Source of the DNA: Mobula hypostoma
Taxonomy: Eukaryota
Assembly: GCF_963921235.1 (NCBI RefSeq)
Contig: NC_086107.1
Location: forward strand, 101,992,001 to 102,056,000
DNA length: 64,000 bases
Direction: 5' to 3'
Shown here: piece by piece, positions 24,658-26,951 of the stretch
Layout: every line of letters begins with the position of its first letter
Position numbering within the stretch: position 1 is the stretch's first letter
Position numbers and translations under genes: made by a program
The notes under the pieces: model-generated
The model's input: only the letters and a program-made list of their open reading frames with translations
What the model was told of the DNA's origin: nothing
Database searches by the model: none

Positions 24658-25758
24658 TAAACACAAAATAATCTGCAGATGCTGTTGTCAAAGGAACACT
24701 CACAATGTGCTGGAGGAACTCAGCAGGTCAGTCAGCATCAGTTGAAAAGAGTAGTCAACGTTTCGGGCCGAAACCCTTCGTGAGGACTGAAGGAAGAACT
24801 TTGGGGAGGGTTTGAAGAATGCTGGTAGTTGAAAAAAACAGTAATTTGAAAGACAAAGGGGTGGGGGAGAGGAAGCAGGGAGGTGATTGGCAGGAGAACA
24901 ATGCGCAGTAGTAGTAGTAGCACCTCACCAGCCTCCAGATCCAGCACATTATCCTCTGCAACTTCCGCCACCTTCAACAGGACCCCACCACTAAGCACAT
25001 CTTTCCCTCTCCACCCCTCTCCGCTTTCCTCAGGGATCGATCCCTCCACGATTCACTTATCCGCACGTCCATCCCCACGGATCTCCCACCCGGCACTTAT
25101 CCCTGTGAGCGTAAGTGCTACACCTTCCCTACACCTCCTCTCTTGCCACCATTCAGGGCCCCAAACAGTCCTTCCAGGTGAGGCAACAGTTCACTTGCGA
25201 ATCTGTTGGGGTCATCTATTGCCTCCGGTGCTCTCGGTGCGGCCTCCTCTACATCGGTGAAACCCGACGCAGATTGGGGGACCGCTTCGTCGAGCACCTC
25301 CACTCTGTCCGCCACAACAGATAGGATCTCCCGGTAGCCACCCACTTCAACTCTGCTTCCCATTCCCATTCAGATATGTCCATACATGGCCTCCTCTACT
25401 GCCATGATGCTAAACTCAGGTTGGAGGAGGAGCAACACCTCATATAGCATCTAGGTATTCTCCAGCCCCTTGGTATGAACATAGAATTCTCCAACTTCCG
25501 GTAGTTCCCTCCCCTTCCCTTCCTCTATCCCTATTTCACATCGCCTCCCTCATAGTTCCGCCTCCTTCTACTACTGCGCATTGTTCTCCCCCACCCCTTT
25601 GTCTTTCAAATTACTGTTTTTTTCAACTACCAGCATTCTTCAAACCCTCCCCAAAGTTCTTCCTTCAGTCCTGACGAAGGGTTTCGGCCCGAAACGTCGA
25701 CTAATCTTTTCAACTGATGCTGACTGACCTGCTGAGTTCCTCCAGCGCATTGTGAGTG
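24658..25758 (+). mobile_element. Penelope-like element, 5'-truncated, with GIY-YIG endonuclease remnant and inverted terminal repeats
   Basis: ORF remnant FTCESVGVIYCLRCSRCGLLYIGETRRRLGDRFVEH (GIY-YIG); ~220-bp inverted arms; 15-bp duplication TTACTTTGTACTCTG at 24643-24657 and 25759-25773. Confidence 0.9.
25667..25702 (+). ncRNA. Minimal type-I hammerhead ribozyme in a Penelope-like terminal repeat
   Basis: AGTC-CTGACGA-A-GGGT(TTCG)GCCC-GAAA-CGTC-GACT: intact core, stems I and II, GTC cleavage triplet, palindromic loopless stem III (ACGT). Confidence 0.8.
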
Positions 25759-26951
25759 TTACTTTGTACTCTGCCTTGGAGTTTGTCCTTCCAAAGTGTA
25801 CCACCTCACACTTCTCCGGGTTGAACTCCATCTGCCACTTCTCAGCCCACTTCTGCATCCTATCAATGTCTCTCTGCAATCTTCGACAATCCTCTACACT
25901 ATCCACAACACCACCAACCTTTGCGTCGTCTGCAAACTTGCCAACCCACCCTTCTACCCCCACATCCAGGTCACTAATAAAAATCACGAAAAGTAGAGGT
26001 CCCAGAACTGATCCTTGTGAGACACCACTAGTCACAACCCTCCAATCCGAATGTACTCCCTCCACCACGACCCTCTGCTTTCTGCAGGCAAGTCAATTCT
26101 GAATCCACCTGGCCAAACTTCCCTGGATCCCATGCTGTTTGACTTTCTGAATAAGCTCACCGTATGCTGTCGTGTTGTTTTTGATTGACTGTAAATGAAC
26201 AAAATCAGCACAGACACCTAGTGCAGATAATGGTTTGCCTTCATACGATACTTTCAATAATATTCATTTTCATTGTAACATTCAAGAGAGGGGGGTCTTT
26301 GGATCCAACCTTTCACTTTCCCATGGATTCAGTAATCTTTTACTGAAATGGTTAACCTTTTCTTTGTTATCCTTAAGCTTAATATGAAAGAAATGCCTGC
26401 ATTGTGCTCCAAAGCCACTGAATTTAAAGTCCAGCACATCCCCTTGGTCCCACCTTTTTGACCTGTGGGAAGATAAATGATCTGAACTCTCCAACCCAAA
26501 TGTTTCCCACTACTCCAACATCAACTCACCTTTAAGTAGCAATTTATAGTCCACCTTTGCTGAGGTGCATTTCACCTGGTAGAGGACCTTGGTTCCAGTT
26601 CTTAACTTTGCCTTTTACTAATACTATGCTGGCCTTATGAATTATGGTCACTATCAACAACATTACTTCACACTGATATCCTCCTGCCTAGTATGACTCC
26701 CAAAAATTATGCATCCAAACTACCCTCTCTACCATTGACCATTTCTAAACTGCTGAATCTACACTCACATTTCCATGATTTGCCAAACTAGATTAAAGCC
26801 TTCAGTAGCTTTAGTAAATGCTCATATTCATAATGATGTGTAATGTAACCGGCTTAGAAAAGTCCCTCCCAGAAAAGAATGGCCTCAGTGTCCCAGACAT
26901 GTGAACCCCTTTCTACTGCGCTCTCTCTCAGCAATGAATTCAGCTACACTA

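What the first reader, a model, noticed from the sequence alone, without database searches (positions are those of the whole stretch)
24658..25773. Penelope-like element with hammerhead ribozymes in inverted terminal arms
Seen: a GIY-YIG remnant flanked by ~220-bp inverted repeats, each holding a minimal hammerhead. The + copy (25667-25702) has an intact core; the - copy (24753-24788) reads CTCACGA and GTT. A perfect 15-bp target duplication flanks the insert. Known: Penelope-like elements carry type-I hammerheads in their pseudo-LTRs, often with a palindromic stem III that forms only in a dimer. Inference: this is the parent structure of the many short ribozyme-bearing repeats in the window.
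Basis: partly seen in the sequence, partly recalled or inferred. Interest (0 to 1): 0.7.

Follow-up and report, generated by a model that had tools for sequence, protein, structure and literature searches.

The report
Dead Penelope copy with inverted end
This 1.1-kb insert is the broken tail end of a Penelope-type jumping gene with a mirror-image copy of its end repeat, a layout already described in other animals; its one intact hammerhead-ribozyme motif is predicted to be unable to cut here, and the short repeats nearby are likely separate insertions of sister families, not its offspring.

Summary
A 1,101-bp insert (24658-25758) lies between two perfect 15-bp copies of a site in a LINE. Other copies of that LINE carry the site once, so it is a true target-site duplication (TSD). 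Inside: a 31-bp tail, an inverted 232-bp end repeat (pLTR), a broken linker + GIY-YIG remnant and a sense pLTR. The protein is 78-90% identical to ray proteins and has the Neptune-type cysteine linker. The sense hammerhead matches the published minimal type-I motif; the inverted one has a broken core. This whole layout (inverted pLTR, one-sided 31-bp tail, TSD) is described as typical of Penelope-like elements (PMC3846280, PMC8557442). The two hammerheads are on opposite strands, so they cannot dimerise in cis; a read-through RNA is predicted to fold arm-to-arm and bury the core. The 'parent' claim is not supported: 25 other arms are only 70-85% identical. Five of six head-to-head pairs (this one included) have their own 10-15-bp TSD, so they are independent insertions, likely primed from both cut strands. 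The scan has noted this family many times, in this genome and others. Ordinary; interest 0.15.

The parts
24643..24657 (.). Left copy of the 15-bp target-site duplication (host LINE sequence)
   Evidence: empty-site joint
24658..24688 (-). 31-bp PLE 'tail', present on this arm only
   Evidence: related tails at 54190-54225 and 55895-55925; described in PMC3846280 and PMC8557442
24689..24920 (-). Inverted, 5'-truncated pLTR copy (232 bp); keeps a 27-nt segment that the right arm lacks
24753..24788 (-). Minimal hammerhead motif with broken core (CTCACGA) and GTT triplet
24921..25504 (+). 3' ~194 codons of the PLE ORF (linker and GIY-YIG endonuclease); no RT; one frameshift near 25125, premature stops at 25322 and 25445, natural stop at 25502
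   Evidence: most relatives lack the two premature stops
25104..25126 (+). Neptune-type CX2-5CxxC linker, broken by the frameshift at its third cysteine
   Evidence: intact in P0001, P0002, P0003, P0004, P0005, P0007; 36 of 38 long relatives carry it
25211..25258 (+). GIY-YIG signature (VIY...CxxC...YIG)
25505..25758 (+). Pyrimidine-rich 3' region and sense pLTR (25562-25758 matches the left arm); ends without the tail
25667..25702 (+). Minimal type-I hammerhead motif with intact core: helix I 4 bp, extra A after A9, helix II 4 bp, palindromic ACGT; predicted cut after 25698
   Evidence: cleavage not tested
25759..25773 (.). Right copy of the TSD; its first 8 nt match the start of the element's tail at 7 of 8
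23918..26092 (-). Host LINE reverse-transcriptase remnant interrupted by the insert (CR1/L2-type by recalled resemblance, not tested against a repeat library)
   Evidence: RVT_1 E=3.5e-12; frame continuity
5943..6126 (.). Sister short head-to-head pLTR pair, 164 bp, 10-bp TSD
39086..39287 (.). Sister short head-to-head pair, 174 bp, 14-bp TSD (1 mismatch)
43163..43409 (.). Sister short head-to-head pair, 221 bp, 13-bp TSD (1 mismatch)
53981..54239 (.). Sister short head-to-head pair, 231 bp, 14-bp TSD (1 mismatch); its sense arm has an intact hammerhead core at 54094-54121

Best explanation
The insert is a dead, 5'-truncated copy of a likely Neptune-clade Penelope-like retrotransposon that landed in a LINE, likely made when the element's enzyme cut the two target strands 15 bp apart and copied uncut element RNA onto both ends. 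Shown: TSD, empty site, inverted pLTR, one-sided tail, broken ORF, hammerhead motifs. Inferred: the bottom-strand nick primed at the internal start site and gave 838 nt (pLTR plus ORF end, no tail); the top-strand nick primed at the outer start site and gave 263 nt (tail plus pLTR); the two cDNAs were joined head to head at 24920/24921. Both pieces span the predicted cut site, so the template was not self-cleaved there. The short pairs in the window would be the same reaction by sister subfamilies with both cDNAs stopping early. The sense hammerhead is a family feature that is predicted to need a tandem partner or the element's protein; in this copy it is predicted to be inert. Identity as an EN+ PLE about 0.97, Neptune type about 0.85, two-strand priming about 0.65.
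For: TSD and empty site. ORF 78-90% identical to Hypanus/Mobula proteins; P0004 carries RT-like motifs upstream and matches 803-1,058-aa proteins at 27-52% over 85-98% of its length (P0017-P0054, most with a precomputed RVT_1 domain). The CX2-5CxxC linker marks Neptune/Nematis (PMC8557442) and is in 36 of 38 long relatives. Same layout as Pen2a_Av: inverted pLTR, 31-bp tail on one arm, TSD (PMC3846280). A purified Poseidon PLE protein cuts and extends both strands, starts RT at two sites that bound the tail and uses uncut RNA (PMC11167929). In the window 5 of 6 head-to-head pairs have 10-15-bp flanking repeats against 0 of 14 single arms tested and 11 of 1,494 random pairs; 4 of those 5 have the tail on one arm only (by eye). 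No mirror symmetry at the 24920/24921 junction. 36 of 38 hammerhead bases pair with the left arm in the whole-insert fold, -531 kcal/mol. In run X1 differences of 10% or more fall in loop II and outside the motif or at the end of helix I, none in the core.
Against: No tree with named Neptune references and no CDD cd10442 test could be run. The Pfam GIY-YIG score is below the curated cut-off. The in vitro data are for a Poseidon element, not a Neptune one, and there RT started without homology to the target, whereas this right junction has 7 of 8 matching bases. PMC3846280 prefers self-priming on an antisense template for head-to-head inversions. The 27-nt arm difference may mean two templates or a later deletion. 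The lack of TSDs at single arms may reflect ends that I placed wrongly. One pair (40074-40163) has no TSD. One search is one run of contigs, depth-weighted and limited to matches of 80% or more, which favours apparent conservation.
Confidence: 0.8

Rival explanations
1. Same element, but the inversion arose by fold-back self-priming (the PMC3846280 model), with the middle of a longer insert (direct pLTR plus most of the ORF) deleted afterwards.
For: Published model for head-to-head PLE inversions. Two short pairs have near-mirror centres (39186/39187 and 54082/54083). This copy has suffered other deletions (27 nt in the right arm).
Against: The focal junction has no mirror and at most 2 shared bases. 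In the pairs at 5943 and 43163 the two arms stop at different positions. Fold-back alone does not explain a tail on one arm only.
Confidence: 0.2
2. One reading: this is the parent structure from which the short ribozyme-bearing repeats derive as a non-autonomous, MITE- or retrozyme-like family.
For: Shared geometry and shared hammerhead module; 27 other related hits in the window against 0 in 20 shuffles. Tandem retrozymes are reported to derive from PLE pLTRs (bioRxiv 10.64898/2026.07.22.740005).
Against: Identity only 70-85%; four diagnostic strings occur only in the focal arms. Each short pair has different junction and outer ends, unlike copies of one master. No tandem arrays among the 29 hits. 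Only 2 of 25 other arms keep an intact core.
Confidence: 0.06
3. The sense hammerhead works in this locus, cutting transcripts in trans-dimers with the many related RNAs.
For: Intact core and palindromic ACGT; related sequence is in contigs of two runs guessed to be RNA (one is flagged as probably DNA).
Against: Monomer fold buries the core (GACG pairs with CGUC; -12.7 kcal/mol, z -1.47). The drawn double hammerhead scores -16.3 against -25.4 for two monomers and -30.3 for the best dimer (tertiary contacts are not modelled). Published minimal motifs cut weakly even as dimers or need the protein. Transcription of this copy is not shown.
Confidence: 0.07

Closest known systems
Inverted-pLTR insertions of EN+ Penelope-like elements (Pen2a_Av and scaffold-304 copy, PMC3846280; general scheme in PMC8557442 Fig. 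2)
   Same: Inverted 5'-truncated pLTR at the 5' end, 31-bp tail on one arm, TSD, insertion into another retroelement, broken ORF.
   Different: TSD is 15 bp (8-10 bp in A. vaga). The inverted pLTR abuts mid-ORF sequence, with no direct 5' pLTR and no junction palindrome. Host is a ray-like fish and the linker is Neptune-type.
Neptune clade of PLEs (as summarised in PMC8557442 and PMC3846280)
   Same: C-terminal GIY-YIG with CCHH residues and a CX2-5CxxC linker before it.
   Different: Only the last ~194 codons are present; the linker is broken by a frameshift; placement rests on the motif, not on a tree.
Minimal type-I hammerheads (min-HHR) of metazoan PLE pLTRs (PMC4209133)
   Same: Helix I of 4 bp, extra base between 9 and 10.1, G10.1-C11.1, palindromic 15.2-16.2, no helix III loop; pairs on opposite strands 100-700 bp apart were already noted there.
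   Different: Helix II is 4 bp (7-8 bp in the S. mansoni families); cleavage of this variant is untested.
Non-LTR retrozymes (bioRxiv 10.64898/2026.07.22.740005)
   Same: Type-I hammerhead of PLE origin.
   Different: Retrozymes are head-to-tail tandem units without coding sequence; this is head-to-head with an ORF remnant.

Membership tests
EN+ Penelope-like elements | C-terminal GIY-YIG endonuclease with CCHH residues | tested here: met
   VIY..CxxC..YIG and two His in alignment A2; Pfam E=5.7e-4, below cut-off; 7 of 11 aligned members hit PF01541
EN+ Penelope-like elements | Telomerase-like RT upstream in the same ORF | tested here: inconclusive
   Absent from this truncated copy; present in relatives (P0004; P0017-P0054); RT phylogeny not run
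EN+ Penelope-like elements | pLTR with hammerhead motif, direct or inverted | tested here: met
EN+ Penelope-like elements | [quoted passage not shown] | tested here: met
   31 bp at 24658-24688
EN+ Penelope-like elements | Target-site duplication of variable length | tested here: met
   15 bp, empty-site joint
Neptune clade | CX2-5CxxC linker between RT and EN | tested here: met
   First two Cys present, third lost at the frameshift; intact in close relatives and 36 of 38 long relatives (the 2 misses are rows where my pattern did not find the YIG anchor)
Neptune clade | Groups with Neptune, not Nematis or Poseidon, in an RT tree | not testable with these tools
   No named reference set was available
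Minimal type-I hammerhead | Core CUGANGA / GAAA / NUH with helices I and II and palindromic 15.2-16.2 | tested here: met
   Sense copy. Inverted copy fails at G5
Minimal type-I hammerhead | Self-cleavage as a dimer or with protein | not testable with these tools
   Folding only
Rfam hammerhead families | Covariance-model match | tested here: not met
   No hammerhead hit at E<=1 in the window
Non-LTR retrozymes | Head-to-tail tandem units, each with a hammerhead | tested here: not met
   All six adjacent pairs among 29 hits are head to head

The most novel reading that the evidence does not exclude
The insertions are a fossil record of the PLE reaction in vivo: a dimeric enzyme primes both target strands from two fixed start sites, and the short pairs are run-off ('strong-stop'-like) cDNAs whose shared stop at helix I marks the 5' boundary of the element's RNA. 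That boundary (25665-25671) fits both an initiator (YYANWYY, recalled) and a splice acceptor (pyrimidine tract plus CAG), so the hammerhead would sit at the very start of the mRNA or of exon 2 and act as a gate on it, not as the maker of the transposing RNA's end.
Probability: 0.3. Interest if true: 0.45.

Novelty: new member of a known kind. Interest (0 to 1): 0.15.

Why it matters
As a single locus it matters little: it is a tidy, young-looking example of a described structure in a very abundant family. Its use is as one data point on how PLEs integrate, which is still open (two-strand priming versus self-priming; role of the hammerhead). The window's five TSD-flanked inverted insertions suggest that this genome holds enough junctions to test those models by counting.

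Tried and rejected
Rfam scan: no hammerhead hit; not evidence against the motif, since the minimal form lacks helix III. No whole genome is held, so no genome-wide counts. Degenerate hammerhead pattern in metagenome contigs: 0 matches. Raw-read runs X21 and X22 laid 0 reads: no test. No laid contig spans the insert, so fixation or polymorphism of this copy is unknown, and the empty-site joints may be other LINE copies or empty alleles. The roughly 20-fold depth step between 25652-25659 and 25668-25675 in X1, and loose ends at 25666-25667, fit either truncation or subfamily divergence and were not used as proof. Runs X11 and X14 are only guessed to be RNA: expression not shown. tblastn of 12 long relatives found no RT or N-terminal piece of a PLE in the window, so the ORF start could not be placed relative to the tail. 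The sigma-70 promoter scan does not apply to an animal element. Sequence look-up in earlier findings: nothing. Literature searches listed no paper on short TSD-flanked pairs in rays (listings only; subscription journals are not covered). Supplements of the papers were not read; File S1 and Fig. S2 of PMC11167929 bear on the tail/start-site match.

Full report
Observation. The features reported are in the sequence. A 15-bp direct repeat (24643-24657, 25759-25773) is perfect, and the inverted arms comprise 182 nt at 97% plus 28 nt at 93%. Aligned end to end, the arms differ by one 27-nt indel and 5 substitutions in 194 columns; two of the changes on the left arm are CpG-type. The insert is 1,101 bp (24658-25758). 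It interrupts a minus-strand LINE RT (RVT_1 E=3.5e-12). Removing it with one repeat copy gives a 154-codon open frame across the site, and contigs from four public runs join 24642 to 25759 (6, 6, 1 and 1 contigs). The repeat is therefore a true TSD. These joints may be other copies of the LINE, and no contig spans the insert.

Coding remnant. 24921-25504 reads, in two frames, as the linker and endonuclease of a PLE. It has a frameshift near 25125 and premature stops at 25322 and 25445; most related contigs lack the two stops. A 69-aa piece hits Pfam GIY-YIG at E=5.7e-4, 20.6 bits, under the 22.6 cut-off, and finds 16 proteins among 22 candidates; the top five are named for Hypanus sabinus and Mobula hypostoma, at 78-90% identity. 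The host is thus likely a ray. One of them, P0004, extends into RT motifs and finds 45 longer proteins among 2,821 candidates, most with a precomputed RVT_1 domain. Of the 38 best (P0017-P0054), 36 show CX2-5CxxC before the GIY-YIG motif, the mark of the Neptune and Nematis clades (PMC8557442, passages read). That Nematis is confined to nematodes is recalled. No tree with named references was possible.

Hammerheads. The sense motif (25667-25702) has helix I of 4 bp, an intact core, an extra A after A9, helix II of 4 bp and ACGT in place of helix III. These are the features listed for minimal PLE hammerheads in PMC4209133 (parts 1-2 of 4 read), which also notes opposite-strand pairs 100-700 bp apart and low activity even as dimers. 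A strict descriptor matches 3 places in the window and none in 100 shuffles; Rfam finds none. The inverted motif has C in place of G5. Because the motifs are on opposite strands, one RNA carries only one of them. The monomer fold buries the core; the drawn double hammerhead (-16.3 kcal/mol) is less stable than two monomers (-25.4) or the best dimer (-30.3) by nearest-neighbour energies; in the whole-insert fold 36 of 38 motif bases pair with the left arm. This copy is predicted to be inert; cleavage was not tested.

Known structure. PMC3846280 (parts 1-3 of 5 and passages read) calls an inverted pLTR with a one-sided 31-bp tail and a TSD the typical Penelope structure; PMC8557442 describes the same. 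The insert has exactly this, including a 31-bp tail on the left arm only. PMC11167929 (parts 1-2 of 4 read) shows that a Poseidon PLE protein cuts and extends both strands, starts RT at two sites that bound the tail, uses uncut RNA, and that its hammerhead cuts only with the protein.

The short repeats. Five queries found 29 merged hits in the window and none in 20 shuffles; two are the focal arms and one (14273) is only a pyrimidine tract. I aligned 25 of the 27 others (leaving out 3268 and 14273) to the focal arm: 70-85% identity, 2 with an intact core, and four focal-specific strings found nowhere else. Twelve hits form six head-to-head pairs. Five pairs, the focal one included, have 10-15-bp flanking repeats; 14 of the 17 single hits were tested (3268, 14273 and 51513 left out) and none did; 11 of 1,494 random flank pairs reached that score. 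Four of the five carry a tail on one arm only (judged by eye). All 8 arms of the four short TSD-flanked pairs begin between 25667 and 25694 in focal coordinates (hand-set limits), upstream of the predicted cut at 25698, so they were copied from uncut RNA. Opposite-strand joints at 25668, 25669 and 25692 also occur in 5 contigs of run X1. These are independent insertions of sister subfamilies, not derivatives of this copy.

Mechanism. The simplest account is priming from both nicks of a 15-bp staggered cut: 838 nt from the inner start site on one strand, 263 nt from the outer start site on the other, joined head to head. This is inferred. The published alternative, self-priming on an antisense template, predicts a mirror at the junction, which is absent here unless a later deletion removed it. 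Why short copies stop near helix I is unexplained. The sequence there fits a splice acceptor (10 of 14 pyrimidines, then CAG), and in D. virilis the intron ends at helix I, 46 bp of exon lying before that 75-bp intron (PMC2377424, passages read). It also fits an initiator consensus (recalled; a weak 7-base pattern). RT arrest at the structure is a third option. Tandem retrozymes (bioRxiv 10.64898/2026.07.22.740005, part 1 of 5 and passages read) are a different arrangement.

Earlier scan notes (unchecked AI notes) report the same family and the same reading in this and other genomes; my reading and the clustering of 5' ends were noted before those look-ups. Verdict: real, correctly recognised as a PLE with hammerheads, wrongly called a parent, and ordinary in kind. 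Interest 0.15.

Noticed in passing
window 51025-51620 (+): A second, older PLE 3' remnant: GIY-YIG C-terminal piece (51064-51207, 50-75% identity to relatives), long pyrimidine tract and decayed hammerhead pLTR.
   Followed up: partly
window 54963-55036 (-): tRNA-Arg(CCT) gene, Rfam 64.8 bits and ARAGORN hit.
   Followed up: partly
window 25651-25671 (+): Pyrimidine tract plus CAG ending at the 5' strand of helix I; fits both a splice acceptor and an initiator; similar tracts precede the arms at 9605 and 23049.
   Followed up: partly
window 40060-40170: Sixth head-to-head pair, with a tail on the left arm, both arms stopping short of the hammerhead and no TSD found.
   Followed up: partly
window 39040-39340: The pair at 39086-39287 seems also to sit inside a LINE remnant similar to the focal host (resemblance by eye).
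   Followed up: no
P0001, P0004: Ray database proteins named mucin-2 and divergent protein kinase domain 1C are largely PLE ORF sequence, apparently mis-annotated gene models.
   Followed up: partly
window 25673-25676 with 25695-25698: With C at position 7, GACG can pair with CGUC and bury the catalytic core in the monomer; C7 shows no variant at 10% or more in run X1. Could be a built-in off state.
   Followed up: partly
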